This document shows positions 28,657 through 62,000 of a stretch of 64,000 nucleotides of DNA, in pieces. Positions within the stretch are counted from its first letter, which is position 1. Each line of letters opens with the position of its first letter. The DNA lies in NCBI GenBank assembly GCA_018398765.1, contig JAHBMJ010000366.1, positions 1 to 64,000 on the forward strand. Direction: 5' to 3'. Source of the stretch: Chromera velia (Eukaryota). The notes below the pieces were generated by a model. That model worked only from the letters and a program-made list of their open reading frames with translations. It had not been told where the DNA came from and did not search any database. The position numbers and the translations under genes were made by a program.

Positions 28657-29958
28657 CTATTTGTCCCTCACTGGCATGCCAGTCCGCCGTGCGCTGCTTG
28701 CAGTGAAGTTGGGGATTGATGGAGCCATTGGATCCGATGCAACGACGGCCTGGTTTTGTACCAGCTGTGTGTGCGATTGAGTGCTGGCGGACGAAGCGCA
28801 GATGATGGTGGAGAGGCCATGGGTAGGGCTCTCGATATCGGACTTGAAGTAGGCTTGACTGTACCCGCACTCTACTTGAGGCAGCATACCTGTGCATGCA
28901 ATGAAGCGCTTGAGCTCGTCCTTCTGCCATAGTTGAACGTCCTTTCCATGTTTGGGGCGAGTGGACTTAGGTTGAAGCTTCTCCCTTTCAGGGGTGCTAA
29001 TGACAGACGCAAATCCACCTCGCTGAATGACCGACGCGTGGAATGCCAACAGATGCTCAGGCTCGATCACGTGCTCGATCACATCGGCGCTAATCACCAC
29101 TGCTCCCTGAACAATTGAATCCGGGATTGACGGCATGGCATCGAAGTCATTGATGTTCCACTCAATCGCTGCGAAACCCGCCAACGATTCGACGTTCTGG
29201 TTACGGTACCGCTCTGTGGCTTGGATTGCCTCTCTGGCAGCTTCTAAGTTGTCCTTGAAGTCTATGATGAAAAGGTTGAACCCCTTCCCGAACAGTGTGG
29301 CTGCCTTCCGCCCGTTTCCGCAGCCTAGATCTATGATCCACCCATTTGCTCCCTCCGCAAGCGAGTCGGCAAGCAGAGCGGCTGTATTGTAGATGTTGTA
29401 CTGGTGAATCTTCTCCGATCGTTTCTTTGTATCAAGGTCGTACTTCGGCTTCACGTTGCGCATGTAGTACTCTGGCAGGAACTTCCTTTCCTTCTCTTCA
29501 GCCGACACAGTCGCACAGAAGGAATCGAGGGGAGCGGCAGCTCCGCCCAACTGTGGCGCCTGTGCTGCTAGTGGTACCATCTGCGCGGTCTCCATGTTGC
29601 TCGGGCTGTGCAGTTCCGAGGCTGCGCTGGTTGAGGGCTCTGTGTTTGTGGGTGACAGGGGAGCAGCTGATTGTACAATGGGCGCTGCGATGCTTTTCCT
29701 GCGTGCGACATCCATTGCATCCGACCGAACTGTTCCTTCAAGCCTCGGCACAAGGTCTTCCCTTTGGAGAGGGACTGTCGACCGCTCTGGAGGGGGAAAC
29801 GGCGCAGTAACAATGCCTGCAGCAGTCATCCGAGATTCGTCAGACTCCGACGAATGAGGGCGAGAGGCCATTTGCATAAAGGTCAGAAAGCAGATAGTGG
29901 CCATGGCAACCAGGGCAAAAAGCTGCCACGAGAAGGGCCGGCGGAGGACGACTGCCAT
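28657..29958 (-). CDS. Intronless type II membrane class I SAM-dependent methyltransferase
   Basis: ATG 29958 (MAVVLRRPFSWQLFALVAMATICFLTFMQM, a TM anchor), P/S/A-rich stem, motif I IIDLGCGNG, ADVIEHVIEP, ISTPER; stop at 28657. Confidence 0.85.
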   Translation of the reverse strand: MAVVLRRPFSWQLFALVAMATICFLTFMQMASRPHSSESDESRMTAAGIVTAPFPPPERSTVPLQREDLVPRLEGTVRSDAMDVARRKSIAAPIVQSAAPLSPTNTEPSTSAASELHSPSNMETAQMVPLAAQAPQLGGAAAPLDSFCATVSAEEKERKFLPEYYMRNVKPKYDLDTKKRSEKIHQYNIYNTAALLADSLAEGANGWIIDLGCGNGRKAATLFGKGFNLFIIDFKDNLEAAREAIQATERYRNQNVESLAGFAAIEWNINDFDAMPSIPDSIVQGAVVISADVIEHVIEPEHLLAFHASVIQRGGFASVISTPEREKLQPKSTRPKHGKDVQLWQKDELKRFIACTGMLPQVECGYSQAYFKSDIESPTHGLSTIICASSASTQSHTQLVQNQAVVASDPMAPSIPNFTASSARRTGMPVRDK

Positions 29959-30673
29959 GTCGGTGATAGAGGTAAATTTCGGACTTTTCAATCAGACTCG
30001 CAGTAACTGTTGCCTATATGTGTTGCATGGGCCTCTTCGTTCAAAACATCAACCGTAAGAACTCACGTGTGAGATTGAGGCACGATTGACCCGTTTCAGC
30101 GACTACTTGCGCTACAAATAATCGGTTTGGTGCACACAACAGCACGAGAATCAATGTGAGGAGCTGTTCTATATATATTACGGGATACACGAGGCGACAG
30201 ATATATAGCAATACATATATATAGGTCAGTCATTTTCCTTTCTCGGCATGCATGCATGCATGGGGTTTTTGAGTTTGTCCAAATGCATGGGTGCATATTG
30301 GGGGAGACGCATGCGTGATCGCCGTGATCGACTCGCGATCTCTCTCATTTTTTTTTTTTTTTGCATTGTGTGGGGTCCATGCCTATACAGGCCGCCTGCA
30401 GTATATATACATATACACCTCTATGAAAGTCAAATCCACTGAGTGGATCCAACATTGAAGAGCACGCGGACAGGAAAGATCTGGCAGAGCCACAAGGCGG
30501 GAGACAGAACCATTCAATCCACTCGTCGAACAACTGCTGTTCATCGACGTGTTAATTGTCGGCATTGATCTGTACTGTCGTCCATTGATGTATATATATA
30601 TACTAGCTGCCGCGTATAATTGCGTTGACTTAATATTGATTCGACGTCCAACCCTGCTTTTGAGAGATCGCAC

Positions 30674-33368: not shown

Positions 33369-34652
33369 TTAAAAAAACTCCACTGCATCCTTCTCTAAGG
33401 GCGTAAAGTCGCGGCCTTTGTCTCGGCACGGCTCTGTCGCGTACTCAATTTGCTCCTTCTTCTTCCCCCCCGCCGCCCTCCCTCGTGGGGACTCTGTTCC
33501 ATTATGATACAGTCGCTCTAGCTGTGCGCAGGTGGCGGCTTCCCAATGCATGGGTGTTCATCATCTGATCGTCAGTGGGATGGTGCACTGCCGCGCCGCC
33601 CTGGCCGTCTTTGGCTTTCGAGAAGAGAAGGCTCGAATTCTTCGGCATAGTGTTCGCAAAGTACGCACGGGAGATTGTTTCCATGGATCCCCTGCATTCA
33701 TTCAGAAAGGCAGAAAAGAAACGATGCATGAGTAAAAACCAATGATTGAGAAGTTAACACGCAGGGAGGAGCTCTCAATGACCGATGGCCGGACCCTCAT
33801 GCATGCAGAATTGAGGGGGACTCAGGGTATACTCTACTCTCAGTGGGGGTCTAGATTCTGTCTGAGGAGAGGGGAGAACGACACGTACACAGGCAGGGAG
33901 AGCAAACAGGGCAGAAACTGAAACACAGACAGAGTAAAACGAAACCAGGGCAATAAAGAGATTGAAGGATTGGAAACAAGAAAGGAAGACAGAGAAGGCC
34001 CATCAGTCAATTTGCACCTGTGAACATGTAAGACTTGGAACGCTCATTCATACTTGCCACGGTCGTATGTGAGAAAGAGAGCCTGGAAGACGAAGGAGGA
34101 AGAGCACGACGATCGAGCTAAGTGGGGAGGAGGGGAAGGAGCATCTTTGAGGAAACCATTTCAAGGAATTGAGTTTGCAGGGGCTCCGTCAGGGAGAGAC
34201 GATGCACGCATGCATGCGTATTCAAAAGAGTGTGTGTGCCGTAAGGCACGTGCAGACCTCACTCTGCCTGTTTGGTATACCCTGCTTTTACTTTGGTTTT
34301 TGCATCTTCACTATCGATGGGTATATCAAGCAGGTGCCTGCCAGTCGAATAGATTTACGAATATCCATATAAGTATATGCACATATCTTTATGCATGACT
34401 CTTCAAATGACGCCGACCCAGTAGGCCGACCCATGACGTACGTTGCGAATTTGGCCAAGAAGAGAGCGCCACTCTGGAGACAGCTCTGTTTCGTTCATGT
34501 CCTTCCACTTGAGCCTCTCGTTGTACGCAGTTTCGTTGTGCATCAGCTCAAGGATCATATCTTCAAACTTTCTCATGTCCCCTCCTGCATGCATCAGGCA
34601 TCACACACACTCACATACATACATACACATGTATTCGAATATTTTATGTGTA

Positions 34653-34691
<39 letters not shown>

Positions 34692-35737
34692 GTGAGTGAG
34701 TGAGTGTGTGTGTGTGTGTGTATGTATGTGTGTGTGTGAATTCCTTTCGGCAGAGTAGATCCTGAGAAAGAGGGCGTGGGAAGCGAAGGAGATCAGGAAG
34801 GAAGAAATGAGAGACAGAAATGATCGATCAACTAGGCAGCAGAACAAAAGAGAAAGAAGAAACGCCGTGCGGCCAGCGGCCTGCAGGGGCGGAGTGCCGG
34901 AGGGAGGACTGCTTAGATGGCAAGATCGATCGATCGATCGATCGATCAGGTTTGGAAAGCAAAAAAATTCAGGTGAGAATTTCTTTGTTTTTGCAACGTT
35001 TCACCTATCTATCTGCTTAATTGTCTGTTTTGGTCCCGCCATCTTCAGTCCATTTCCGTCAGTCTATTTCTTTCTCATTCCTCTCCGTCTCCGTCTATCT
35101 GTCCTCCCGTCTATCTGTCGGGTGTCTATTGAATTTCTCACCCGCATCCAGTGTAAAATCGAGGGCAGCATCCGGACGTGGAAGAAATTCTCGAATGTTC
35201 GCGGGGCCGTTTGTGAGCGGTAGGCATCTGGTGAGTGGATTGTTTTCGTCGTTCGTTTGTGACATTCAGGATGCAGGAGGGAGATAGGTTCCATGCATGC
35301 ATGTGTCTCCGCATAAACAAGCAGTCGACAAATATAAATGCAAGCAATTAATTTCTGAAATTCGCAAGAACGAGACAGAGTGCTGCTGCGATACGCCCAT
35401 GCACGCGATCGATTCAGAAGAAATCCGACACATGCACGGTCCGGCCGTGTGCAATTTGCAGACATGGAGGCAGGGGAGGAAGCAAGAAGGGGGGAACAAG
35501 AAAGGAAAGAAAGCTGGAAGGAATGAAGGAACCACAAAAGGTAAGAAGGGGGGAGAGCTGAAGGGGGCCGGCAGGAATGGAGAAAGAAAGAACGGAAAAG
35601 CGGAAGGACGAAAGCATGGAAATCAATGAGCAAGCGAGCAAGAGAAGCAGAGAGGAAGAAAAAAAAAGGGAAGAAGGGAAGAAAGCGACTCGAGAGGAGA
35701 GGGGGCAGTTTGTGTGTCTTCCTGCAAGCACCAATTT

Positions 35738-35770
<33 letters not shown>

Positions 35771-37575
35771 CTTACTCAACTAAGGAAAGGTCGAGGAGGA
35801 AAAGAGAAGCCAAAAGTGTCAGAATTAATTGTTCTCTTGCACCCGCATGAGAAAAGGAGAGCGAGGTAGACATGCACTCAGGACTACTAAAAAAAAGTTT
35901 GTATCGACTGGCAGGCACACCGACCGACTCACCCTGCTTGGAGGCCTTCAAAAACTTTTTCACACACATAATCTTTCGTGATCGAATTTTCAAACACCAG
36001 ACAGAATTTGGATCTGCAAACAAACAAACAAAGAAACAAGCCTTCATGGGCAAACAGACAAACAAAGAAAGAAAGATAGAAAGAGGCAGGCAGATGTGCT
36101 GAGGTCACAGGATCAGGCTCGGCTCTCTCTATCCATGCCCTTTGGAGTCCAATTCTAACGATTCACAACCCGAAAAACGTATACAGCGAGAACGGTTGCA
36201 TGAGGCCACTTGTTTTCATGCACAGGTAATTTGTCAAACTCATTTAAACTCATGCAATTTATTTCTATCGATCGTTCTTTCTCTCTCGCGAATCGAATCT
36301 TATTTAGAGTGCACGAAGAAAAATGATATGCAGGGAGCAGGTGGGAGAATGAGAGAGGATCAATGTTAACTAGGGACCGTGAGAAATTTATTCTTGCACA
36401 AAGATACATACACAGTGTCGCCAGAATAACAAACAAAAGGAACGGATCGAGCATACACTGATCAGCCGCAGCGGCGCTCGAAGCTAGCCAGACTTTGTGG
36501 ATGCAAGTGAGACTCTGCCTCTAATCTTAGTGCGTGCAGCTAAACGTTTGTGCGTGTACCATGCAATGGATAGCATCCATCCCGCCCTGCTCATATGAGG
36601 CGAACTCGAACTCACAGCAGCCCCCCGAAGAGAATTTGCATCCATAGCATGGCGGCATGCAGTCAGGCAAGGGGATTTCAGCACAAGGAACAAACAGACC
36701 CTTCTCCCCCTTCCTCTCTCTGCCAGGCAAGGGGGTTTCAGCTCAGTTAAGGAACAAACAGATCCTGCTGCTAAATTCTTCCTCTCTCTGCCTCCCTCCG
36801 CTCTCTCTGTATCACTCACTCACTCACTCACTCACTCACTCACCCACTCGCTCCTTTATTCACTGACCGCCGAAAAGTGGCGATTTTGTCCACCTTCCTG
36901 CCATTTTTGGGACTTCGATCTCTGACGTACTCCTCCGAATTATGAAGGCACCTGCGCAGTTTTCCAAAAGAATGAATGAGCATGCATGAACGTTGTGCCT
37001 CTCATTTTTCAACACACAGGACTATGAACAAAAACAAACAGTGTTCCACACAAAATCACCACCCAGACGCCCATCCGATGTCAAAAATCTAAATTCCGCA
37101 TTTGCCAGCCAGACATCTAGAGCAAGAAGGGCCATGCCTTCGTATGTCATGGTTTTCGTTCGCTCATTTCGTCCTTCCGTTCTGCCCTTCCCCAGCCCCT
37201 TCTCTCACATTTTCGACCCTTGAATGTCCTTTTTTCGTCGATCTTTTCCCCGGTCCCATTTTTTACACGTGCATTGGATCTTCCCCATGTTCGCCCGTTT
37301 CTCGCAACAATCAGCTGTCGCTCTTTTTGCATGCATTTAGACAGACAGGCAGACAGACAGACAGACAGACAGACAGATCGAAGTCAAGCGAGGAAGGGAG
37401 GATGATGCATCTGGGCGATTGATCATGTATCTATCCATCTTTCTGTCTGTCTGTCTCACTGACTGCATGATCAACCGACTTACGCTCCAACGGCATCCAC
37501 TTGAACTCTCTTGTTCTCGATCATTTGCAGCTTCCTCGCGCGATCAATTCGCCGGTTGGTTCATGCACACACATA

Positions 37576-37617
<42 letters not shown>

Positions 37618-40600
37618 CATCCAACCGTGTATCCCGGACAGACATGTTTTTCTGTTTTACGCGGAAATCAGTGCAGCGTAAGGCTTTGATTTGACTCCCC
37701 GTCCAACCTCCCTCCCCAACTTCCTGTAGGAGGGATGGCGTTGATTCTCTTGGCGAGCGGGATGGACTATCGATCGATCGATCGATCGCACAATGTTATG
37801 CAATCAGCCGGCCTGTTTGAAGAAAGACAAACAAAGAAAATGCATCGTGGCATCCTGAGAAAAGAAAGCTCTTGAGCAGAACAGCTGAAGCAGTGAGAGA
37901 GAAAGAAAGCCAGAAAGAAAAGAGACGGTCCGGGATCTAGAAGACGATCGATCGAACATGGAAAGCCTCCCTCGCGTGGGTGTGCGGCAAGATGATGAGG
38001 AGGCACTATTTTGCAGTTCGGTTGATTGATGTTTTCTTTTCTTGTTTTCCGTTTCTCCTTTCTCCCTCCTGCCTCCCCTTTTTCTCTCTGTCTGTCTGTC
38101 TGTCTGTCTGCAAGTCTTTTTGTCCCGCCGTTGGCTTCCTTCCAAACTCTCATGCATGCATGGGGGCACCCACCTTCACGTAGGTTTCGCGCTTGCTTGG
38201 AGTGTCACAGTTGCCGTTGAGGAACACGACGGCGTTTCTTTTTTCGCTGAAGGGCAGAATGGGGTCCTGCAGAACGACCAGAAGGTCAAACAAACAGGCA
38301 GGCAGGCAGGCAGGCAGGCAAGAGTGGAAACATATCGATCTGCAAAAGTACCCAGAATGCTCACGAATGCATCGACACATACTATCACATGCAGACCCTG
38401 GCTGCAGCTGGACTCACTCGAGCAGGCAGTCGATCGTTCAATCATAATTAAAAGAAAAGAAACTGTCACTGAGCTTATATTGCAGAAACCCTAAGCAGGC
38501 GAGAAGGGGTTGGTGAGAAGGGCTAGGGACACAGGTATTGATAGTGAAGCACAAAGCGCCCACTCTCGCCCTCTCTCTCTCTCTCTCTCACAGTCTGTTG
38601 CACACCTTGGAGAGAGGACGGAACGACGAGAGAGGACAGAAGGGCGGAGGAATCAGTGAGGGCTACAGAAAAGGAGACAAGGTAAAAGATGGGGGGTGGA
38701 AAGAGAGAGACAAAGAATCGAATACGAAGGCAAACAAACAGTTGATCAGACAGAAAGTCAGACAGTCAGGCAGAAAAAAAGCAAGATCAACAAATGGATA
38801 GACACACATCCAGGCAGCTCCAAAGGAATGCAAAAATGCAAACATGGGGACATATGCAAAAACCAAGAAAGGTGGGGGGTACAGACGGCCACAGTCACAA
38901 CATCATCGATCATTCTGTACATATGTTTGTATTTGCATATGTATATAGATGTATGCGGCACTGGCGCCCCCAACCATGCACAGTTTGCCCTCAGTATTTC
39001 TTTCATCAATCGATGCACACACAGGCGACCACACCCGCATGTTCTCATCGATACCATCGTGTTGGATCGATCGCTCGAAAGGAAAGAAAGAAAGACTGCA
39101 TGCATATGCGCATGCATGCATGACTAAGCCCTTCGATCTACACAACTCACGTAGACCCTCTCGACCATCTTTGTCGTCAAACACGGCATCCACTTCTGCA
39201 GGCAGGCAGACAGGCAGACAGGCAGGAAGACAGAATTCATCGACGTATATAATATCCCTTCGATGACTTGTTGATCCTTTCGGTCCATAAGGAAGACAGG
39301 AAACCTCGATATCCGCGTGCGCAAACATGCAAGATAGGTTTCTTTTCCATATGCACACATAAAAATCTTGAGTCTGTGCTTGAGAGTCGACAATTCGAAA
39401 TGTGAGAAGATGCACAGAAAACAAATGCATCATCCATGAACGTACAAACGGCAACTCACGCGCACAGGCAAACAAAATTCTCTCTCTACACGCATGCATG
39501 CATGCATGATCGTCTTCCCAGATCCCTCCCTGACTCCTAATGGATCGATCGATCGATCTGCATCAGCACCCAGAAGCACCCTTTTCTTTCTTTTCCTTTC
39601 CTCTCCTTCCCTTAATGACTTTGCGTCCACAGAGACAACGTACACATTTATGCGATACCAAAATGGATCTCTGTTTCATTCCATACCACCCCGACACCGA
39701 GCCAGACCGACCGACCGTACTCTCCTTGAGGTACGTGGACGACATGTCAAATCTGCAGGGAGGAGGCATGCCATCAGTATACAAGGGGAAAGGGAACAAA
39801 TAGAGGAGGCAAACCTTCACAACGAAATTAATTCAAGTGTATGGAAGGAAGCATCCAAATGTTGATATCATTCCAAACCAACACATACAACGTCATGCGG
39901 ATGTGCTTCACTACATGACAGACCATCAGAAAAGCTGAACAAATGACTGTGGGCGGAGGTGACAGACCGACAAACAGGCAGATAGGCAGGCAGGCAGGCA
40001 GGCAGGCAGACAAACAGACAAAGAGACAGACAGCCAAACAGACAAAAAAGGGCGGACAAACAGACAGACAGATAGACAAACTGGCAAACAAACAGATAAA
40101 AAGACAATTACAGAACAGACACTCATGCCTGCATGACCTCAATGACCGACAGGCGCAAAAAATCCGGATTTCTGAAAGCCGGTACGCGAACTGCCGACTC
40201 GATCCCGGTGAGAGCCGTCATCTGCCAAGGGAATGTCTTCTGGAAGATTGGCCTCAATTCCTCCGAAGATCCTTTCAACCCGACAAACCCATGCCACATC
40301 AGGACCTCAGCATTTTGGTTGTTCTTGTACTTGGGATGTGTCCTAGAATAAACTTCGCATGGAACCCGGCAGCCCTGAAACGGTCCGTCCGGGTACCTCA
40401 AATGCGACCTTGACATAAACTGGACGGTCACAGTTTTGTTACTTATTACAGGGGTGACCGAAGAAGGCTCTGGTGACACGTCAGGGGTGATTGCGCCTTT
40501 CGATGAGGTCTCATCAGTCAGTGCAGCCTCTTTCGTAATGTTACGTGCACCCGCCGTTCCTCCGAAAGGCCGGTCTTCTCTTTGAGGCGAAATACCAGCA

Positions 40601-41555
40601 GAGGGATGACCCACTCCTTCTTCTTTGGGGGCAGCAGAAGGCGGGGACGTCTGCAAATTCTCCCCCCCCCCGGTCGTTGCAACTAGCTCTGGTTCCGTTT
40701 TTTCGGAGGCGCGGTCACCAGCCAAAAAGACGGCCCCTGGACCGGGCATCGCACCCGTTTTCGCTTCTCCCTGTGGCCGAAGTGATTTTGCTTCATTCCC
40801 CCCATGACTCAAACCAGCACCCCCTCCATCTCCCTCCTGTTGAGTCTGCAGCAGCTCACTCTTCGACGCCGACTGCTGCACGCCGACTTTCGTCAGTCCA
40901 GCAGTCTGGAGTGAGTTGTTGCCGTCTGCTGAACTGCTGTTCGCGTCCATTGAGGAGGAGGGGGCTTCTGCGGTCCTGGGCTGGAGGAGACCCGACGCCG
41001 CCCTCTCCCCCTCAGCCTCGTCTTCTCCTCCCGAGTCGGGCAGTCGTGCTCCGTCCGTCTTCTCCTCTTTCAAGGAAGCAGGGAACAAAGAAGGAAAAAT
41101 ACACACATTTACATACACTTCAGGCAGGAAAACACCGTCCGTCTCGCTGCGCATGCAAGGCGGAACGCGTACTCGCTCAAACTCAGTACCGCTTGCCTTT
41201 CTATATATGTATACGTGCATCCGTGCATTTCACAGAGTGTCGATATCATTACCCTGGACGGCAGCAATGGAGCCGACGTACCTCTTTTCGCTTCTTCGAG
41301 CTCACATACGACCTTCAGCCAGCACTCCGCGCCTTCAGGCTCACACTCTTCCTGAACAATCCGGTGAGTGCCCTCGCAGTGACGCAATGGAGAAGGAAGA
41401 GTTCCCTCTGGACGGAAACACACGTCTTTTGCACTGGGAATCGATTTCTCTTCCCCCAAAACGAGAAATTTGCGGACTTGCACGAACTGTCGCCAGTACA
41501 TGACAGAAAGGAGAACCAAGATGCAGGCGGCGCCAATGACGAAGCAGCGCGTCAT
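33369..41555 (-). CDS. GT10 alpha-1,3/4-fucosyltransferase-like type II membrane protein, copy 2
   Basis: Exons: 41555-~41478 (TM MTRCFVIGAACILVLLSVMYW), ~41065-40151, 39752-39716, 39195-39151, 38266-38174, 37530-37484, 36951-36868, 36013-35933, 35227-35142, 34584-34442, probably 33861-33795 and 33538-33369. Motifs VVFLNGNCDTPSKRETYVK, VDAVGACLHN, SKFCLVFENSITKDYVCEKVFEGLQAGCLPL..GPANIREFLP, LMHNETAYNERLKWK. Confidence 0.88.
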
Positions 41556-42266: not shown

Positions 42267-43372
42267 ATGATCGCTGTTATCCTTGCCCGCGGGGGCTCCA
42301 AGCGATTTCCTGGCAAGAACGTCACTCTGCTCTGTGGTAAGCCTCTGATAGCGTGGACAATCGAGGCAGCACTGGGCTCAGGCCTATTCTCTCAAGTGGT
42401 CGTTTCCACAGACTGCGAGAAGATCAAGGCAGTGGCCGAGCGCTACGGAGCTTCTGTGCCCTTTCTTCGTCCTGCCGATCTCGCCTCTGACGATGCCAGA
42501 GCTGTGGATGCTCTGGAGCACTGCTTGCAGACACTTGGAGTGTCCTCTGGGAAGTGCTGCCTGCTGCAGCCAACCAGTCCAGTACGTTCTGCAGAAGACG
42601 TGCGAAGGGCCGCAGAGGAATTTGAGAAGTGTCCTAAGGATGTTGTGCTCGTGTCAGTTATCCCTTCGAGCAGCAGTCCCTTCAAGACGCACACGGTCAC
42701 TACAGACAACCTCATGGCTCCCGTGACGTCTGCGCAGTTTTTTTCGACAAATGCACAGTCGCATCCACCGACATACTCCGAGAATGGGGCCATCTATTTC
42801 TTCCATGCGGACAGCTTCTTTGCCGCCAAGCCCCAGACCGCCTGCGGTGTTTACGGGTACAAAGCTGCCCCCTTCGTGATGAGCCCAGAGACAAGCGTGG
42901 ACATCGACAAGCCCGAAGACCTCGAGAGAGCGGTGAAGGCTCTCGCCCCCCGTCTCCGTCAGGCGAGGCCTCCCTTCCTTATTGGGAACAGAGTCATCGG
43001 CCCAGACCAGCCCCCACTGGTAATCGCAGAAATAGGGATCAACCATGAAGGCGACTTTCAAAAGGCCATCAAAATGGTTGACGACGCACACGCGGCCGGC
43101 TGCGAGATCGCGAAATTTCAGTGCCACGTCTGCAGCGATGAGATGACGAAGGACGCCGGTCAGTCCATTTCTGAAAAAAAAGCCCGGTCTGCGAAAACCC
43201 TATTAATGTCTGACCTTGATGCAGAGCGTGTACACATGTAGAAAGAGTCTTGTCACAACATCAGCAGCAAAGCACGTCGGCCGGTCAGTCTGTTTGAAGA
43301 GCCGAGCCGCTTCTGGTTCGTGAACTGTTGCAATTTGACGACTTAACGGTTCCTTTCTGTCTGTCTGTTTTT

Positions 43373-43412
<40 letters not shown>

Positions 43413-43990
43413 GCTCACTCTCTCTCTCTCTCTCACACACACACGCACAATCCCACGTGCATGCCGGCATGCAGGGAGCGTGATCCCCGGCAACGCGACG
43501 GAAAGCATCAAGACGATCATGGAACGGTCAGCTGGCATTTCTTCTTCCTCTTTCGATCAAGAGAACGTTCAGCTTTTCTTTTTTTTCGTTCCCCTCCTTT
43601 CCTTTCCTTTCCTCTTTCAAGGAAACGTACACGCTTGCTTTCTCTTCCTCTGTCTCTGTCTCTCACATGCCAGAAAGAAGCACAGCATCCCTTCACTCAC
43701 GTCTGCGTGCCTGGTCATCTCCTGACTCTCTCTCGCAGAGACTCCCATATCAGCCTGCCTGATCCACCCATGTACCCTTCATTTCCTCCCCCCCCCCTCA
43801 TTTGAGAGAGAGAGAGAGAGCCCTTCCACCAATTCCTATTCGCACATCCCCCTAGCTCTCTCCCGAGCCCACTACATAGTGCACAGTACCCATACAGCCC
43901 CCCCTCCGGCATTCATCGGTCTTCGCATTCTGTTTGAACGAAATCTCCGCTGAGTGCGCACATTTTTGTTTCTGTCTGTCAGTGTGTGTG

Positions 43991-44025
<35 letters not shown>

Positions 44026-46175
44026 CCCTGCATGGATGCTTTCATGCATGAATGCATGCAGGTGTGCGCTGACAGAGGAGGAGGATCGGAAGCTGAAGGA
44101 GTACGTCGAGGCCAAGGGCATGATCTACATGTCAACACCTTTCTCAAGGGCGGCAGCGGAGCGCCTGAAGAAAATGAACGTGGACTGCTACAAGATTGGG
44201 TGAGTGGGTGGGTGAGTGGGGAGGTGAGAGGGTGGGGGAAGGGGGATGGATGTGTTCCCTCTGCCACTGTTTGCCTTCTCATCTACACGATTGGTTAGTT
44301 GTCTCCTTCTCTCTCTACCTGTGTATCTGTTTGTCTGTTTGTCTGTCTGTCTGTCTGTCTCTCTGTCTGTCTGTCTGCCTGCCTGTCAGTCTTCTTGCCT
44401 GTCTGTCTGTCTGCCTGCCTGTCTGCCTGTCTGTCTGTCTGTCTGTGTCTCTGGTGCTCTCCGTCGCTGCCCCCTTTTCAAACCAGAACCCGGTTCCTGT
44501 CTTTTCTTCTCTGCCTGCCTCCTCGGGGTCTTCTCTGCTTTTGTTTGCACATGCGCTCTCTCTATTGTCCCCCGTCCTTGTGAATGTGTGTCTCCCCCTG
44601 CCCTCTGTTTGCACATGCGCTCTCTCTATTGTCCCCCGTCCTTGTGAATGTGTGTCTCCCCTCCTTTCCCCTCCTCTCCTCACGCATGCAGCTCCGGTGA
44701 GTGCAACAACTACCCTCTGATCTCTCATATCGCCAAGCTCGGTAAGCCGGTGATTCTGTCCACCGGCATGAACGACATCGCGTCTGTGGCCCCCGGAGTC
44801 GAAATTTTCAGAAAGCACAGGACCCCCTTCGCACTCCTTCACTGCACCTCCATGTACCCTACACCATATGAGCAGGTAGGGGGTGAGAGAGAAACGAAAA
44901 GAAGCCTCAGGCTGATAGCACACACCCCTTGGCGCGATCACCTGATCAATAGCAATGAAGGGAAAAGCCTGAATCTTGCATATTTGATCAGACAATAGGC
45001 CGTAGTCCTCACTAGTGGTGTATCTATGAGAGGAGTGAAATTTCAGAAAGAGTGGACTGTGTTTGAGGGGCTTTTTTTTTCATTCCGTCTGCTCTGTTCT
45101 ACTTTCTGTAAGATTGTTGGTCGCCTCCTTTTCATACAAATTCTGTCCGCATCTTTCTTTTGTCATGCCCCCCTTCCGTTTGGTTCTTTGGTCTGTTCAG
45201 ATTATGCAGTGTCTGTCCTTTTTCTTTCTGTTGTGCCCATTTGTATTTAGCGTGTTCACACGAGCCTTCTTTGTCAGCACTTCTTCTGGAGCCTTCCGTC
45301 CGTCCCCGCTTTCCAGGAAGGATAGAAGGAAGGAAGAGAGAAACGTCGATCGAGAAAAGAAGGGGACATGAGGAATCCTGCTGATAATACGACCATCCAC
45401 TTCCTTCCCACACTGCTGCTCTCTAGCTGACTGGCCCTCCAGGAGCTAGGAGGATCGATCCGCCCGTCCATTTCCTTCCACTCCACTCGGCTCCGCTGGG
45501 TTCCAGTTTGTGCTGCTGCCCCGATTTGGTTTGTCAAATCGATTGATTGGTTGATTGATTGATTGATTGGTTGATTGAATGGAATCATTATTTTTTGTTT
45601 GTGATTGATTGATAGATGGATGCATCATCATCATCATCATGTGGTGTGGTGTGGAGTACGTGATTGATACATCCATGATCCTCCATGCATCGATGATGCA
45701 GGTCCGATTGGGGGGCATTGCGGAATTGGAGCGCGCGTTCCCCGACGCCGTGTTGGGTCTGAGTGATCACTCCCTGGGCATTTGGACGTGCCTCGCGGCA
45801 GTCCCCCTGGGAGCATGTATCCTTGAGAAGCACTTCACGTCTGACAAGACCTGGCCGGGGCCGGACGTGCCGATCTCGATTGACCCCGACGAACTCCGTG
45901 ACCTCATTCAGGGAAGCAACATCATCTTCCGATCCCTGGGGGGAACTAAGGAGATCCTGAAGGAAGAGCAGCCGACGATCGACTTCGCCTATGCGTGTGT
46001 GGTGACCATCAAGCCCATCGCGAAGGGCGAGGTGTTCTCGATGGAGAACGTGTGGGTGAAAAGGCCTGGTACGGGGGAGATTTTCGCCAAGGATTTTGAA
46101 GTGGTGTTAGGAAAGATGTGCATGGCAGCGCTGGAGACCGACATGCAGCTGAAATGGGCCGACGTGCAGAAGTGA
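42267..46175 (+). CDS. neuA-neuB: Fused CMP-nonulosonate synthetase (NeuA) + N-acetylneuraminate synthase (NeuB/SiaC-type)
   Basis: Exons 42267-43158, 43475-43526, 44062-44199, 44692-44875, 45702-46175 are in frame. NeuA: ILARGGSKRFPGKN, VSTD, FLRPADLASD, LLQPTSPVR, ENGAIY, SVDIDKPED. NeuB: PLVIAEIGINHEG, VIPGNA, STPFSRAAA, YKIGSGECNNYPLI, ILSTGMN, LLHCTSMYPTPYE, GLSDHSL, ILEKHFT, and an AFP/SAF-like tail NVWVKRPGTG. Confidence 0.95.
44542..44662. repeat. Direct tandem duplication (64-bp period) in NeuA-NeuB intron 3
   Basis: TGTTTGCACATGCGCTCTCTCTATTGTCCCCCGTCCTTGTGAATGTGTGTCTCCCC starts at 44542 and again at 44606. Confidence 0.9.
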
Positions 46176-47769: not shown

Positions 47770-48906
47770 TTAGAGCTGGCCCAGGACTCCCTCGAGGTGC
47801 TTCATCATCCTACTCACGGCATGACCGTCGCCGTAGGTGGTGTCCCTGTCAAATCTCTCCTTCGGGTGCTCAAGCAACGCCTGCAGCACCTCATCCGAAT
47901 TCTCCCCCTTCACGGAAAAGACGTTCGGCGGACAGGTGCGGCCCTGCTGGCGGGTCCCGACGTTGACTGCGGGTGTGCCGAAGAACGCAGCCTCCCTGAT
48001 GATCGCGCTGCTGTTGCCGACTATCGCCTTGCAGTTTTTCAGTAGAATGATGAACTCCTCGTGGGGGAGAGAGGTCATGCAGTTGACATTCTTGGAAAAT
48101 GTGGGGGAGGTTTTCTGAATTTCGTGGAGCGTCTGGATCATGTCTTTGCTCCCCGGGTCGATATTCGGGTAGAAGAGGATGGCACGTTCTCCCGTTCGGT
48201 CTACAGCCTCCAGGATCGACCTGTACTGTTTCACGGTGTCCTGGATACTGCAGGTGTCGGGATGGTACATGATGATGAAATATTCATGGGGGACTACTCG
48301 GTGAGTAACCAGCAGGTCTTCGGTCGAGTGTCCACTGCCGATATGTTCCATTTCGAGGAACACATCGTACGATGGACATCCGGTGCAGAAGACTGCGGAG
48401 TTTTCCTCACCCATTTCAATCACTCGCATCCTGGCTGCCTCCGTACATGTGAAATGAAGATCGGAGAGTTTCGATATCGAATGTCTCAGCTTTCCGTCAA
48501 TCGTTCCGGACAATTCCCCTCCCTCAAGGTGCACTGTGAAGATTTGCAACAAAGTGGAAGCAGATGCCACTCCGAAAGCGTCAAAACGGTCACCGTGCAC
48601 AATCACAATCTTTGGCTTAGCGAGGGCCAAAAACTGGGAGACCTTCAGGATGGTCAACGCCACCGAGTCGGCCATGTTGTTGGTATCATTCCCCGCCGCC
48701 ACGGTGGACACTTTGGTGGCACTCTTGGCGAAGTCCTTCTCCACAAGGCGGAAACTGTACCCGCTTTCAATCAGAAGATGACTGCCAATCACCAGTGGTA
48801 CAAGCTCAAACAGAGGAGACTTCTCAAGGGCAAGCATAAGGCCCCTCAACTTGGAATAGTCCGCTCGGGTGGAGGTAACAACACACACCTTGACGGGTTG
48901 CTCCAT
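47770..48906 (-). CDS. neuC: Hydrolysing UDP-GlcNAc 2-epimerase (NeuC / GNE epimerase domain only), intronless
   Basis: ATG 48906; VCVVTSTRADYSKL, GSHL, VHGDRFDA, HLEGGELSGTID, RHSISKLS, GCPSYD, YPNIDPGS, VGNSS, VNVGTRQQGR, YGDGHA; stop at 47770 with no kinase domain. Confidence 0.95.
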   Translation of the reverse strand: MEQPVKVCVVTSTRADYSKLRGLMLALEKSPLFELVPLVIGSHLLIESGYSFRLVEKDFAKSATKVSTVAAGNDTNNMADSVALTILKVSQFLALAKPKIVIVHGDRFDAFGVASASTLLQIFTVHLEGGELSGTIDGKLRHSISKLSDLHFTCTEAARMRVIEMGEENSAVFCTGCPSYDVFLEMEHIGSGHSTEDLLVTHRVVPHEYFIIMYHPDTCSIQDTVKQYRSILEAVDRTGERAILFYPNIDPGSKDMIQTLHEIQKTSPTFSKNVNCMTSLPHEEFIILLKNCKAIVGNSSAIIREAAFFGTPAVNVGTRQQGRTCPPNVFSVKGENSDEVLQALLEHPKERFDRDTTYGDGHAVSRMMKHLEGVLGQL

Positions 48907-50968: not shown

Positions 50969-51005
<37 letters not shown>

Positions 51006-51006
51006 C

Positions 51007-51042
<36 letters not shown>

Positions 51043-52972: not shown

Positions 52973-53009
<37 letters not shown>

Positions 53010-56584: not shown

Positions 56585-58086
56585 TCACGAATAAGTCGGG
56601 CATCGCACGAGATATGGATGTGGTGCAAGGAAGAACGATTCAAGATTTGCTGCCACGACAGCCTCAGCAAAATCAGGGTCTATACATGAGTACTCCTTCG
56701 CGAGAGCCTCTGAAAGATACTTGGGGAACTCTGATCGAGAAAAAAGTGCCTTGGTCGTTTCGTCTCTTTGGCATGGTGACTGGCCTGCATCAGTTCCCTG
56801 CCAGTCCTTTCCGAGCTTTCTGTATAACTGTGCGTACTGCGAATCCGGTGACCCTTTCAAGTCATAATTCCCAGCCCCGAAATCCCTTTTGAGAGCTTTG
56901 AAATGGAACCACGCGTTCACGAACGTTCTCCCCACCTTCCCTTGTCCAGACAGTTTCTCACAGCGGCCCCCTTTGATGTAGACGGTCTTCTGGCTGATGC
57001 GGTGGAGAATGCAATCACCATTACCATTGGTCGGCCTCGTTGCCCACACACACGGGACGCCCTTTCCCCCCGGATCTCTTATCAGGTTGACTCCTTTGAA
57101 GCTCAGCGGTCTGAAATTGCTCTCTGGCAAATCAAGCAGTGTCTCCCGAGCATTCTGCATTGCTTCTCCAAAGACTATCGGGTTGAGAATCGTGTCGCCA
57201 TCCAACTTAATGGCATGCGAGAAGCGTGCACGACTCATGCAGAAGTTGTAGTAGTTCACCAGAGAGTGCGGGCTTGTTGGCGGTAGACTCAAGAACTCTT
57301 TTGTGCCTTGACCATAAACCTTAGCCATGTACTCGAAGACCTTTAGTTTTTTTTTGTCCTTCTCTTCAGGGGATGCCAAGAGTTCTCGTAGCCTGTCCTC
57401 TGTGCAGTCCGAGCAGTCGTTGAAGCAGACGACCACTTCATCGAGAAAATCAATCGCAGACATCACGGCACCGCTGATAAATTCACATTCATTCCTCACG
57501 CGAAAGTAACCGGTGATGCCCCTCTGTCGATCGGATTCTTTCAACATCGACGTCTTAAATTCGAAAGTCTGGACCCGCACAATGGGGTCGGTACTATTGG
57601 CGACATTAGCGGAATGTTGGAAAGGGAGAGCGGCTGCTCAGCCACGCTGCTCCCTGCTGGAAGCCCCACCGCTATGCTCTCTGTGCCCGTCCCCGTGTCT
57701 ACAGAAAGCAAACTAGTGAGGCTGCTGTTGATGCTGCTGGCACTGGTGGGGGCGACGGTGCTGCTGTTGGAGGCCGTGGCAGTGGTGCTACTGCTACTGC
57801 TATCGCTACTGCGCCGAATGCTACTGGTGGTGCTGCTGGCGTTATTGATTCTGACAGCAGGTTCCAGAAACGCCTCCCAAGGTTCCGACCCAGGGGGGGC
57901 AGCCTTGTGTCGGGCCACAAGCTCAGGGTCAACAAATGAGGACTCCTGCTTGCTCAATTGCGAGGGATCGAGCGTGCCTTTATCGTTCTCCACAAGCACG
58001 GACGAAAACCGCACAGTGGAGTGGAAGATGAAGAGGGAACAAAGGATGACAAATAGGAAGGGAAGCATGACAGACCGCCGCCTCAT
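56585..58086 (-). CDS. Type II membrane GT-A fold glycosyltransferase resembling the CgtA (beta-1,4-GalNAc-transferase) / GT2-like group; reading frame broken near 57610
   Basis: 5' ORF 58086-57541: TM MLPFLFVILCSLFIF plus Ser/Thr stem. 3' ORF 57580-56585: GYFRVRNE, VCFNDCSDCTE, SLVNYYNF, AIKLDGD (DxD). The two overlap in frames one base apart. Confidence 0.75.
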
Positions 58087-59040
58087 TTTTCACCACCCAC
58101 AGAAGAAAATACAACAACAAAAAAGCCCGTGCAGTTAGACAGGGGGCGACTGCCTTCGGGCAGTCGGTCGATCTAAATCGATGAACCCGATCGAATTCTC
58201 GGCAAATGGCAAATCACGTTTTTGGTGCATGGATCACATCGTTCTTTCGATCGAGCATCTGAACGCTGGTCGCGGCTTCCAGCTAGACGAACGCCACCGG
58301 ACAGACAGAAATCCAGACGGGCAGCTATATATATATATATATATATATAGACATGCAGGCAAGTATTTTTGCAGTCGATCTTGCAATGTGCATGCATGCA
58401 TGAATGTATCGGTTTCTTCTTTTAGAATTATAGACTGACAGATGTGGCTAAAAATGTTACTATATTAAGGAGGCACACCCAACCTCAGGTGAGTGCCTTA
58501 TTGGGTGTTCTGACACTCATGCAGGCTCTGCGTGGCTCCGTCAAATCACGCGCGCGTCGATATATTTATATCCGCAATTATATATATATATATATATATA
58601 TAAGTAGAATTTTTATGCGAATTTCCGCTCATGCAGGGCCTCGGATTTACCCGAGCTGCCCTCCGAGGACGCACAAACTTAATTCTCATGCATGCACACT
58701 AGCTTGCCTTCGCGCGCGAATACGCGCGAACAAACTAAAAAAATAAATCGATATCGTGTCTCTCTCTCTCTATATATACATGCAGATGCAAAAATATATA
58801 TATAAATTAAAGAGAGACAGTCAGTGTCAGTCACTGCTTGAAAAACGATCCAGCAGCGGATTCTTCTGAACGCAAAACAATCCAGAAAGGTGTCGGAGCG
58901 CGACTGTCATCACTGGTGGAAGGCAGGAAGGAGTGGAAAAGTGGAAGTGGGAAGCAGTCTGTTGTACAAAAGGTTTGTACGGGCATGCAACCCGATGTCC
59001 CCGGGGACTGAGCCCTTTTTGTAGACCCGTCTTTCTAGCA
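58087..59040. promoter_or_regulatory. Putative bidirectional promoter between the CgtA-like gene and GT29
   Basis: 954-bp head-to-head spacer with three (TA)n tracts, TGCATGCA (58389, 58689) and CGCGCG runs (~58549, ~58711). Confidence 0.5.
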
Positions 59041-62000
59041 ATGATTAGACTGAATCGCTGCGGTTGCCGGTACTTGATCTGCATCGCGCTTTTCGTGGCC
59101 GTAGTCAACACATTAGTGGGTTTGCAGCTGTTGAACGGCACTGAAATTCCATTTTCAATCGTCCCCTACCAGACTGAGTGCAACTGCACTGCCGCAGTTG
59201 CAGAAGCAGTTGCAGCCGTTACAGCTGAAGCGGCAAGAGAGAGGGAAGAAATCTTGGCTCGTGTTGCAATGCAGGCACAGGCAGCAGCCGAGTCGACGCC
59301 GCCGGAGCCACCGATCCCAAACAAAGCAGCGGGGACGGGGAAGAAGACGCAGCGGCAGCCTGCTGCACAGAAAAAAAAGAAAGTAGTGCTAAATGAGGAG
59401 TTACTGCCAACAGGCCTAAGTATTTGGGAGGTTCCCACAATCTCACGGAGAATAGCCGATTTGCCCTGGTCGAATCTGACCGCTTTCCGTGCGGCTTTCC
59501 CCAACGATACAAGTAGCTCTACGATCAAGCGGGTTCGCGGTACGCACGACTACGGGGCCGAGGAGCAACTTCGCAGCTTCTTCATCCAGCACGGCCTCGC
59601 GAACTTGCGATTTCCGGGTGTGAACGCCACGCAGCGGGTGGAATGGGACCGCCCTCCGTTGTTAGGGCTCCTGGAAGGGGAATTGAAGGGTCCTGTGCTG
59701 GACCACGTGGCGGCGCCCAAAAACGGTCGCCTTCCCTTTTCGATCCCTTCTAAACTTTATGATCAGTGGAAAGGACTGGTGAAGGGCCTGCTGGAGAAGA
59801 GACCCAGATTCCATCTTGACTCCACAGTGCCGAAGGGATCTGAGTATCCCACCTGTGCTCTCGTGGCCAGTGGTCCGGATATGCTCAATGCGAAGTTTGG
59901 CGCAGAGATTGATGCTCATGATGTGATTTTTCGGATGAACTGCGCTCCTGTCAACGGCTTTGAGTCTCATGTAAGTTTGAGAAGGAAAGAACATTCTAAT
60001 CAATCTGTCAGTGACGCCTTTGAAGCTCAACGAGTGAGTGGGAGAGTCAGTCAGTCAATCCGTGAGTTAGTCATCAGTCAGTCAATTTGTGTATGTATTC
60101 ACGGACAGCGATTCTGCTCTTGGTGTTGTTCGTTTTTGAATCGTCGGCTTCCTTCCACATTCTCTCTCAATCGTCCTTTGAAAAGGTCGGTCTCCGTGCC
60201 TGCCTGCAGGTTGGCTCTCGCACCACCTTCCGCACAACATATCCGGAAAGTACGAGGCAACTGAAAAGGCACTGTGAGAGTGACTCGACCGATCTTAAGA
60301 ATGAAACAAAAACTGACATATGGTGTGAGGGTATCGTCGACCTTCCGTCAGAAGGGGGCACAGTCATTGGGATGGTATTTCACCCACAAAACCTGGAGTA
60401 TTACCACTGTGGGGCTCTGGGATGTCCAAAAAGTTCCAAATACAAATTCGCAACAGAGTACGTGCCCTACAGCGCGGACACGTTTACAGTCCTGAATCCA
60501 GAAGTAATCTGGATCGCACAGAGACTAGTCCCACGAAACGAGACGCAGGGATGGCCTTCTGCGGGGGGGATTCTGGTGGCGCTGACAGGATTGGTAGGTC
60601 ACTCAGCGCTTTCAACGGCCTCTCTCACTCTGTCTTCTTTCTTTATGTGTGCCTCTTTATTTTCATGTCACTTTCTTTTTGCATTCATGATTACCAGAAC
60701 CCTAGTCTATGCTCGTGACATCGTCTCTCTAGATTTTCTTCATCGCTTATCTCTCTCTGTCTAGATGCTCGTGGCAGTTGTTGTCTCTCCTCTTTTTTCC
60801 CCTTTTGACTTTTGTGTTTCTGTGCGTCTGTACCGACCTCTCTTTGTCTTCTCCTTTCCTTTTTCGCTCCCTCTCCCCCCCACCCCCCCNCCCCCCTCTC
60901 TCTCTCCCTCTCTCTCCCTCTCTGTTTCTCTCTCTGCCTCCCTGTGCCGCTCTGCATCTCTCCACGTCCGCGTCTGAGTCGGTCTTCTCATGCGATTTCT
61001 TTGAGCTTGTTTTCTCTCCATCTCTCCATCCGTCGACCCATCCATCCATCAATCCATCCATCCATCCGTCCGACTCTGTCTACCCGAATTTCCTTCTGGC
61101 TCTCTCCCCCTCTCCCTTTTCTTCTTCTGCTTGCGCACATTTTTGAGGGTCCAGCTGACGCCTGTTTTTTTTCGCTGGACTTGTGAATGAATTGGGTGTT
61201 TGCGTCGACTGATTTCTCTCCCTCCCTCCCTCCTTCTTTCTGCATGTACATACGTGTTACAGCGGTTTCACATTTATGATGCACTTTTCTTTTGTATCAG
61301 ATCGGAAAGAACAAAAACAAAAGTTCAAACGTTTACTGTGCCAAAGTTGTCGGATGACCAGTCTCTGAAGATTTATTGAATAAAAAAGGAGAAAAACGTG
61401 AATTGCTGTGTATGCATCCTTGATCTTTGTTTTTATTTGTGATATATGCAGGTGTGTCGGTCGACAACCCTCTATGGGTTTCCCAGCTCATATGCTGAGT
61501 ACTCACTTAAAGGACATGAAGCAATCAAAGAGTCTGACTTTGTTCGAAGGTGGCACTACTATGATTGTGGCGTGGCCACATAGCACAACAGTCTCTTTGG
61601 AGTCAAAAGTTTACGGTCTTCAATGACCCCCCCCCCCCNNNNNNNNNNNNNNNNNNNNNNNNNCCCCCCAATTTAATAACACTTTAGTTTAACAAAGTGT
61701 CATGATATGCTGTCATTAAATGAAAGTCATCTTAATGAATTGTTTAATATGTATTGATATGTTATAATTCTAATAATCTGTGAACATGTGCTATATATAC
61801 TTAAATTTTGTGTCTACCGTTTCAAGTTGTAACCGTATGATGGTCTGTATGTTTCAAATAGTTTGATATAGAATAATTCAAAAATAAATACAAAAATTAA
61901 AAGGAAAAAAACTTGATATACTTAAAAAGCGATCTAAAGCTATTTCTAAGAAGGATAAAGAGGAAGACTGCCCACTGAGGCTCTGTTCAAATTTTTGATG

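What the first reader, a model, noticed from the sequence alone, without database searches (positions are those of the whole stretch)
56585..58086. CgtA-like bacterial glycosyltransferase given a Golgi-type anchor, head-to-head with the sialyltransferase
Seen: motif series RVRNE / FNDCSD / LVNYYNF / IKLDGD behind a TM and Ser/Thr stem. Established (from recall): Campylobacter CgtA has RVKNE / YNDCxD / LYxYYN / IKIDxD and adds GalNAc to sialylated galactose (GM2 mimic). Inference: it acts on the GT29 product in the secretory pathway; the donor sugar cannot be read from sequence.
Basis: partly seen in the sequence, partly recalled or inferred. Interest (0 to 1): 0.7.

Follow-up and report, generated by a model that had tools for sequence, protein, structure and literature searches.

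The report
Broken sugar-transferase in algal glycan cluster
The alga Chromera velia carries, inside a cluster of sialic-acid and glycan-building genes, a bacterial-type sugar-transferase gene whose predicted Golgi membrane anchor and enzyme domain lie in different reading frames, so the anchored enzyme likely existed once but is probably not made in this strain.

Summary
The window is Chromera velia CCMP2878. The motifs, the anchor, the Ser/Thr stem and the head-to-head GT29 are real. The break stands in two DNA runs with no difference. One spliced-RNA library reads through it unspliced and ungapped. The database model bridges it with an intron that deletes the conserved first strand and is not supported by the RNA contigs. 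The domain has a confident GT-A fold (pLDDT 85.5) and keeps its family's key residues. It has no direct Pfam CgtA hit. It belongs to an uncharacterised, mostly bacterial sister family: 35 of 50 relatives scanned pass the CgtA cut-off weakly. Coupling to sialylation is plausible (cluster; GT29 fusions and neighbours in a minority of relatives) but not family-wide (0 of 80 bacterial genome loci). Best reading: a transcribed, recently frameshifted Golgi glycosyltransferase in a NeuA-NeuB/NeuC/GT29/GT10 glycan cluster. Donor and acceptor are unknown. Recoding, a rare splice form or a soluble form are less likely.

The parts
57541..58086 (-). Anchor/stem ORF, 181 aa: MRRR tail, hydrophobic helix, Ser/Thr stem, then a tail of about 30 codons that overlaps the catalytic frame and stops
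   Evidence: RNA contigs cover 58260-57929 and 57743-57309
58024..58074 (-). Predicted type II signal-anchor helix (residues 5-21)
   Evidence: KD 2.65 over 17 residues, as in the neighbouring GT29 (2.66) and GT10-like (2.58) genes
57682..57846 (-). Ser/Thr-rich stem with N-glycosylation sequons
   Evidence: 58% S+T, sequons at residues 82, 107, 120
57574..57637 (-). Window that holds the frame break (a net -1 shift is needed to pass from the anchor frame to the catalytic frame)
   Evidence: catalytic frame opens at 57637; family profile score is full only if the switch lies at or above about 57574; no indel in DNA runs X1, X2 or RNA contig of X3
56585..57637 (-). Catalytic GT-A domain frame (350 codons stop to stop), DxD = D146-G-D148, C-terminal His245; uncharacterised family, sister to CgtA
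57541..57547 (-). Internal ATG of the catalytic frame overlapping the anchor frame's stop (ATG-T-TGA); would give a 320-aa soluble form
   Evidence: weak context (T at -3), and it omits conserved residues 22-30
57474..57604 (-). 131-base intron of the database model Cvel_3344 / A0A0G4FIF8, not supported; it removes RVRNE
   Evidence: read through by RNA contigs of X3 and X5; costs 45 bits against the family profile
58261..58828 (.). Likely divergent promoter between this gene and GT29
   Evidence: RNA contigs of X3 end at 58260 and 58829
59041..61583 (+). GT29 sialyltransferase-family gene, type II anchor, 3 exons, 481 aa, open
   Evidence: PF00777; introns 59971-60209 and 60594-61451; same protein as the Chromera ST in the supplement of PMC5811610
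49775..55340 (+). Two fused Gfo/Idh/MocA-type oxidoreductase domains, intron-containing (3' end approximate)
   Evidence: weak PF01408 hits, E 0.0025 and 0.004, under the cut-off; sequence
47770..48906 (-). NeuC, hydrolysing UDP-GlcNAc 2-epimerase family, intronless
   Evidence: TIGR03568 343.7 bits, cut-off 235.9
42267..46175 (+). NeuA-NeuB fusion (CMP-nonulosonate synthetase plus synthase), 5 exons, 579 aa
   Evidence: PF02348, PF03102, SAF; four introns inferred from frame continuity
34400..41555 (-). Probable GT10 fucosyltransferase with type II anchor, head-to-head with NeuA-NeuB (3' end approximate)
   Evidence: anchor; FENS...DY..EK motif near 36000 (motif recalled as GT10); no Pfam hit on two single exons
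28657..29991 (-). SAM methyltransferase with predicted type II anchor and stem, intronless
   Evidence: PF08241 over cut-off; KD 2.08

Best explanation
This is a transcribed gene of Chromera velia in which a predicted Golgi anchor and stem lie out of frame with a glycosyltransferase domain of likely bacterial origin, most likely because a recent small indel broke a once-continuous type II Golgi enzyme, so that this strain would make only a truncated anchor-stem peptide. Shown: two frames, the break in DNA, unspliced read-through in an RNA contig, a GT-A fold with the family's conserved residues, and the gene cluster. Inferred: the intact ancestor was a lumenal, metal- and DxD-dependent nucleotide-sugar transferase that added one sugar to the surface glycan also capped by the neighbouring GT29 (with the nonulosonate made by NeuC and NeuA-NeuB) and fucosylated by the GT10 (about 60% that it served that glycan; about 15-20% that it was specifically a CgtA-type GalNAc transferase acting on sialylated galactose). 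The CTCTCCCTTT tract at 57630-57621 is the likeliest slippage site (inference).
For: Different frames, with stops in the catalytic frame up to 57640. DNA contigs of runs X1 and X2, from two studies, match 56300-58315 with 0 differences and 0 gaps. X3 is a spliced library (GT29 intron joined, no intron cover) and its contig 57309-57743 crosses the whole break ungapped; X5 reads through the modelled acceptor. All 6 introns examined nearby end in TGCAG, and no TGCAG exists on the minus strand in 58086-57501. No in-phase X XXY YYZ heptamer lies in the overlap, and no unusually stable fold lies downstream (z -0.47 and +0.84). Catalytic-frame residues 22-30, upstream of the only internal ATG, are conserved coding sequence: +7.8 bits, 0 of 200 shuffles reach it; F25 and F27 match the family consensus. 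So the domain was once read from upstream. The anchor matches those of GT29 and GT10 in the cluster. No second lesion in about 500 codons and 16 of 17 near-invariant residues kept, S42 as T, so the break is likely recent. Link to sialylation: cluster genes; P0093 and P0075 fuse this domain to a GT29-like domain; L106 has it among four GT29 genes with NeuA and NeuB; L001 has it directly behind NeuB.
Against: The RNA evidence is thin: one contig at depth 3.5 crosses the break, contigs drop rare isoforms and give no strand, and no RNA contig bridges 57744-57928, so anchor and domain are not shown on one transcript. An intact domain and continued transcription fit a live gene just as well. X1 and X2 may be the reference strain itself, so they say nothing on other isolates. 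No intact orthologue was found to prove the fused ancestor. The sialylation link is a minority pattern: GT29 neighbours in 3 of 76 metagenome loci, 0 of 80 bacterial genome loci, 0 of 3 viral loci, and the Chromera row joins neither nonulosonate-linked clade (long branch, unresolved).
Confidence: 0.6

Rival explanations
1. The catalytic domain is made as a separate soluble protein, from the internal ATG at 57547 (leaky scanning or reinitiation at the ATG-T-TGA overlap, or from a shorter transcript starting in the stem), and works in the cytosol like its bacterial relatives.
For: The ATG overlaps the upstream stop. 4 of 110 Met-starting relatives begin as close to the first motif. The ATG form loses only 8 of 249 bits. 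RNA cover has a gap in the stem.
Against: T at -3, whereas the anchor ORF, GT29, NeuA, NeuC and Gfo starts have a purine there (read). Six AUGs lie upstream within the covered transcript region. No UGGGA element upstream (sequence; the element is recalled from calicivirus reinitiation). Conserved residues 22-30 would be left out.
Confidence: 0.13
2. A minor spliced isoform removes 3n+2 bases across the break and restores the anchored enzyme.
For: 64 GT..AG pairs could restore the frame and keep RVRNE; one donor-like GTCAG lies at 57855; contigs drop rare variants.
Against: No TGCAG acceptor; the X3 contig runs unspliced over every candidate acceptor; no joint in the gene in any of 5 RNA-guess runs laid, of which only X3 and X5 cover it.
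Confidence: 0.1
3. The gene is live through recoding: a -1 ribosomal frameshift in 57637-57574 yields a low level of the full anchored enzyme, with the truncated anchor-stem as the main product.
For: The domain is intact and transcribed; the frames overlap by 94 bases; one 121-base window has z -1.90 (6 of 200 shuffles). Frameshift decoding is known in a related myzozoan, but in mitochondria (Perkinsus; search listing only).
Against: No in-phase slippery heptamer; CCCTTTC at 57626 is out of phase. Two other windows fold no better than shuffles. No conservation data.
Confidence: 0.08
4. Anchor/stem ORF and domain were never one protein; a prokaryotic gene landed behind an unrelated membrane-protein ORF and never gained a usable start.
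For: None of 149 listed relatives has an N-terminal anchor; a GTG at 57580 lies where bacterial relatives start.
Against: The anchor and stem are of the same type as in three neighbouring Golgi-type genes; the catalytic frame runs 20 stem-like codons with a sequon upstream of the GTG; an unused domain at 30-40% identity to its relatives would have decayed.
Confidence: 0.07
5. The break is an assembly error.
For: Single-base errors are common in draft genomes.
Against: Two DNA runs and one RNA run have the same frame, with no gap.
Confidence: 0.02

Closest known systems
Campylobacter jejuni CgtA, beta-1,4-GalNAc transferase (Pfam PF06306; CAZy GT82, recalled)
   Same: GT-A fold class; relatives of the Chromera domain match PF06306 from about profile position 90 (35 of 50 over the cut-off); feature and structure look-alikes include CgtA-labelled clusters; both sit beside sialylation genes.
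   Different: No direct PF06306 hit; relatives reach at most 43 bits on a 347-position model; N-terminal type II anchor and Ser/Thr stem; frame break. CgtA's activity on Neu5Ac-alpha2,3-Gal (10.1101/811554, passages) is untested here. GT82 is described as prokaryote-only (PMC7185993, passages).
Uncharacterised prokaryotic and viral GT-A family (P0002-P0150; NCBI label 'glycosyltransferase')
   Same: 25-44% identity, E down to 1.6e-40; shared G-x-S/T-x-x-R-x-x-N, DE, N-x-C-x-D, Y-x-N, K-x-D-x-D and H; out-of-sample profile score 249 bits.
   Different: The only listed member with an N-terminal anchor; no other member was seen to be eukaryotic among those whose source or genome is named; long branch with no supported sister.
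GT2-type GT-A structures (SunS 7msp, WrtF 9omh, SpsA 1h7l, TarS 5tze)
   Same: Z 13.3-11.6, rmsd 2.6-3.1 over 163-181 residues.
   Different: 9-14% identity; no PF00535 hit for the Chromera domain; these top matches tie, so they give no donor or acceptor.
   Same: Type II Golgi design and GT-A fold (9h6j, Z 10.1, rmsd 3.2 over 161).
   Different: 11% identity, rank 15, no better than unrelated GT-A enzymes; no sign of orthology.
Bacterial neu operons (neuA, neuB, neuC plus transferases)
   Same: NeuA, NeuB, NeuC, oxidoreductases and transferases lie together; L001 and L106 show the same gene set around relatives.
   Different: Nuclear eukaryotic genes on both strands, with spliceosomal introns, a NeuA-NeuB fusion and Golgi-type anchors.

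Membership tests
CgtA (PF06306 / GT82) | Match to PF06306 over the gathering score | tested here: not met
   No hit at E<=0.05 or E<=10 (on residues 24-146 and 31-350)
CgtA (PF06306 / GT82) | GT-A fold with DxD motif | tested here: met
   Model pLDDT 85.5, pTM 0.87; GT-A matches; D146 invariant, D148 99%
   The motifs are in the window and conserved in the sister family; no true CgtA sequence could be fetched (0 of 14 control genomes; none among solved structures), so the comparison rests on recall and on indirect Pfam hits
CgtA (PF06306 / GT82) | Transfers GalNAc from UDP-GalNAc to Neu5Ac-alpha2,3-Gal | not testable with these tools
   Needs an enzyme assay; activity defined in 10.1101/811554 (passages)
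GT2 (PF00535) | Match to PF00535 over the gathering score | tested here: not met
   No hit, although many relatives match its first 60 positions and the best folds are GT2-type
Uncharacterised CgtA-sister GT-A family (P0002-P0150) | Full-domain match and conserved residues | tested here: met
   249 bits over profile positions 6-252 of a profile built without it; 16 of 17 near-invariant and both invariant residues kept
Type II Golgi glycosyltransferase | Short basic N-terminal tail, one hydrophobic helix, stem | tested here: met
   (hydropathy only; location not tested)
Type II Golgi glycosyltransferase | Catalytic domain in the same reading frame as the anchor | tested here: not met
Type II Golgi glycosyltransferase | Golgi localisation | not testable with these tools
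   Needs tagging or proteomics
Canonical -1 programmed frameshift | In-phase X XXY YYZ slippery site in the overlap | tested here: not met
Canonical -1 programmed frameshift | Stimulatory RNA structure downstream | tested here: inconclusive
   z -0.47, +0.84 and -1.90 for three overlapping windows; pseudoknots not modelled
Canonical -1 programmed frameshift | Break conserved across diverged relatives | not testable with these tools
   No orthologue or second isolate shown to differ from the reference was available

The most novel reading that the evidence does not exclude
The gene is live: Chromera decodes the break (a nuclear -1 frameshift or a rare splice) to make a Golgi enzyme of bacterial origin that adds HexNAc to the nonulosonate-capped glycan of the neighbouring GT29, so an operon-like eukaryotic cluster builds an animal-like GM2/Sda-type surface epitope in a coral-associated relative of apicomplexans.
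Probability: 0.05. Interest if true: 0.85.

Novelty: new variant of a known kind. Interest (0 to 1): 0.45.

Why it matters
Chromera's GT29 and bacterial-type NeuC were already used as separate sequences in a study of sialylation in protists, which says that nothing is known of the pathway there (PMC5811610, section 10 and supplements). That they sit in one cluster of about 33 kb with NeuA-NeuB, oxidoreductases, a GT10, a methyltransferase and a prokaryote-type GT-A fitted with a Golgi anchor was not found in my 8 searches. The cluster names the parts of one glycan pathway and makes it testable. The focal gene gives a eukaryotic handle on an uncharacterised family next to CgtA. If the break is a strain lesion, the laboratory strain is a natural mutant whose surface glycan may differ from wild isolates. 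The database protein A0A0G4FIF8 is very likely a wrong model, lacking the nucleotide-binding first strand.

Tried and rejected
Direct family scans: Pfam and NCBIfam gave nothing for the domain; phmmer against solved structures gave 0. Single-sequence folding was unusable (pLDDT 38.8). Word-index searches found only the gene's own model, 16 proteins mostly of one clade and no longer forms (weak evidence). No whole genome is held, so paralogues in Chromera were not searched. No true CgtA sequence was obtained. Trees did not place the Chromera row: support 0 with FastTree on 194 of 289 domains; no starred set in IQ-TREE on 54 rows, bootstrap not settled. No donor lineage is claimed. The search listed no holder on record as RNA; X3, X5 and X6 were judged RNA from their spliced GT29 joint. 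X4, X6 and X7 had no cover on the gene (not evidence of silence). Seven single-letter differences of RNA contigs in the catalytic frame (1 silent, 6 not; depth under 5) were taken as errors. A 1-base gap at 58023 in one X3 contig leads to an early stop in the third frame and does not restore the gene. The C7 run at 57899 cannot act as a phase switch, because the catalytic frame has stops between it and 57640. The C-terminal halves of P0074 and P0081 resemble that of P0075 but did not hit Pfam GT29 or my GT29 profile, so they are counted as GT29-like only by relation. Plasmid and phage searches gave only partial matches named 'glycosyltransferase' or unannotated. No complex was predicted. Earlier-findings look-ups were empty.

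Full report
Source. The catalytic ORF is 100% identical over 84% of its length to UniRef A0A0G4FIF8, Chromera velia CCMP2878, gene Cvel_3344, labelled 'Hexosyltransferase'. The window is nuclear, intron-rich DNA.

Observation. The four motifs lie in a minus-strand frame open from 57637 to 56585. The basic tail, hydrophobic helix and Ser/Thr stem lie in another frame, 58086-57541, which stops before the first motif; a net -1 shift is needed to join them. The helix scores KD 2.65, like those of the neighbouring GT29 (2.66) and GT10-like gene (2.58); none of 149 listed relatives exceeds 1.94 in its first 60 residues. GT29 starts 954 bases away on the other strand (PF00777), has three exons and an open 481-aa frame.

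The break is real. Contigs of two DNA runs from two studies (X1, X2; depth 33 and 15) match 56300-58315 with no difference and no gap; either may be the reference strain. X3, X5 and X6 join the first GT29 intron and do not cover it, so they are spliced RNA. An X3 contig spans 57309-57743 with 3 other letters and no gap; an X5 contig spans 57391-57552 exactly. The database model uses an intron 57604-57474. Both contigs read through its acceptor, its ends (GTCGCC, TTATCAG) are unlike the six nearby introns, which all end in TGCAG (two RNA-supported, four inferred), and it removes 35 profile positions and 45 bits, RVRNE included. There is no TGCAG on the minus strand between 58086 and 57501. Limits: depth is 2.5-3.5, contigs drop rare forms and give no strand, no contig bridges 57744-57928, and 3 of 5 RNA-guess runs laid had no cover on the gene.

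What the domain is. Pfam and NCBIfam do not hit it. phmmer finds 593 relatives at E<=0.001; the best 150 were listed, 25-44% identical apart from the gene's own model. Of 50 of them scanned, 35 pass the PF06306 CgtA cut-off, with at most 43 bits, mostly on profile positions from 90 to about 200 of 347 (one list was truncated). ESM Atlas features and structure point to clusters labelled GT2 and CgtA (one source). With a 112-row alignment AlphaFold2 gives pLDDT 85.5 and pTM 0.87; the best folds are GT2-type GT-A enzymes, Z 13.3-11.6, tied. Both invariant residues (E67, D146) and 16 of 17 near-invariant ones are kept, among them D148 and H245. So it is a member of an uncharacterised family beside CgtA, not a tested CgtA. 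A prokaryotic origin is likely, but trees do not place it. PMC7185993 (passages) lists GT82 as prokaryote-only and says that homology alone does not predict the donor.

Was it once one protein? A profile built without the Chromera row scores the catalytic frame at 249.0 bits, and at 241.2 from the internal ATG (57547). None of 200 shuffles of residues 1-30 reaches 249.0 (mean 242.7). The score stays full only if the switch lies at or above about 57574. Residues 11-30 are modelled with pLDDT 77-95. So the frame was read from upstream of its only ATG, and the break lies in 57637-57574. No in-phase slippery heptamer lies there and folding is mostly unremarkable. With no second lesion in about 500 codons, a recent small indel is the simplest account (inference).

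Surroundings. Within 28657-61583 lie an anchored methyltransferase, a probable anchored GT10, a NeuA-NeuB fusion, NeuC (over the TIGR03568 cut-off), a double oxidoreductase, this gene and GT29. Genes between 30000 and 34400 were not resolved. Which nonulosonate is made is open: NeuB exons score better on TIGR03569 than on PseI, while PMC8208679 (passages) places a Chromera synthase among mostly PseI sequences; I could not tell whether that is this gene.

Does it act on the GT29 product? For: the cluster; P0093 fuses the domain to PF00777 and P0075 to a GT29-like domain (E 1.5e-17); L106 holds it among four PF00777 genes with NeuA and NeuB; L001 has it behind NeuA, a methyltransferase and NeuB, ahead of GT11 and GT10. 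Against: GT29 neighbours in only 3 of 76 metagenome loci (41 of them 5 kb or longer), 0 of 80 bacterial genome loci (the best 80 of 145, found with one subclade) and 0 of 3 viral loci; GT25 and GT11 are the usual neighbours (28 and 24 of 80). The Chromera row lies outside both starred nonulosonate-linked clades, on a long branch. The link is plausible for this locus, not a property of the family.

Literature. PMC5811610 (passages, section 10, supplement searches): holds this GT29 and this NeuC as sequences from separate contigs, notes a bacterial-type synthesis route in Alveolata, and does not hold the focal motif. PMC8208679, PMC7185993 and 10.1101/811554: passages. Eight searches found no paper on Cvel_3344, the cluster or the break; subscription papers and bioRxiv supplements were not searchable, and only part of the Chromera mentions in the PMC5811610 supplements was read.

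Verdict. A real, unusual gene design in an undescribed glycan cluster, but most likely broken in this strain (0.6), with donor and acceptor unknown. New variant of a known kind; interest 0.45.

Noticed in passing
window 28657-61583: An operon-like eukaryotic glycan cluster: anchored methyltransferase, probable GT10, NeuA-NeuB fusion, NeuC, double Gfo oxidoreductase, the focal GT-A gene and GT29, arranged as three head-to-head pairs. Probably more interesting than the focal gene.
   Followed up: partly
window 42267-46175 (+): NeuA (CMP-synthetase) fused in frame to NeuB with SAF domain, 579 aa over 5 exons.
   Followed up: partly
window 49775-55340 (+): Two Gfo/Idh/MocA-type domains fused in one gene between NeuC and the focal gene; may point to a modified nonulosonate rather than plain Neu5Ac.
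   Followed up: no
window 59193: One X5 RNA contig has a 12-base in-frame repeat gain in the GT29 stem (depth 3.7), absent in X3; strain difference or assembly artefact.
   Followed up: no
window 58829: An X3 contig carries 20 foreign letters ahead of the GT29 5' end; likely a cDNA adapter (recalled, not checked), marking the transcript start.
   Followed up: no
window 58462-58507: A short element between the two genes matches other, more abundant RNA contigs (depth 40-70 in X5-X7): a dispersed repeat in the promoter region.
   Followed up: no
L106 2257-10619: AT-rich metagenome contig with NeuA, NeuB and four small GT29 genes around a relative of the focal domain.
   Followed up: partly
L001 5845-11298; L002 7959-8807: An IMG/VR contig with NeuA, methyltransferase, NeuB, this GT family, GT2, GT11 and GT10 in a row; a giant-virus MAG with a lone member of the family.
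   Followed up: partly
P0093, P0075, P0074, P0081: AT-rich proteins that fuse this GT-A domain to a C-terminal GT29 or GT29-like domain.
   Followed up: partly
window 55400-56550 and 46550-47150: AT-rich intergenic stretches between convergent gene ends, unlike the GC-balanced surroundings.
   Followed up: no
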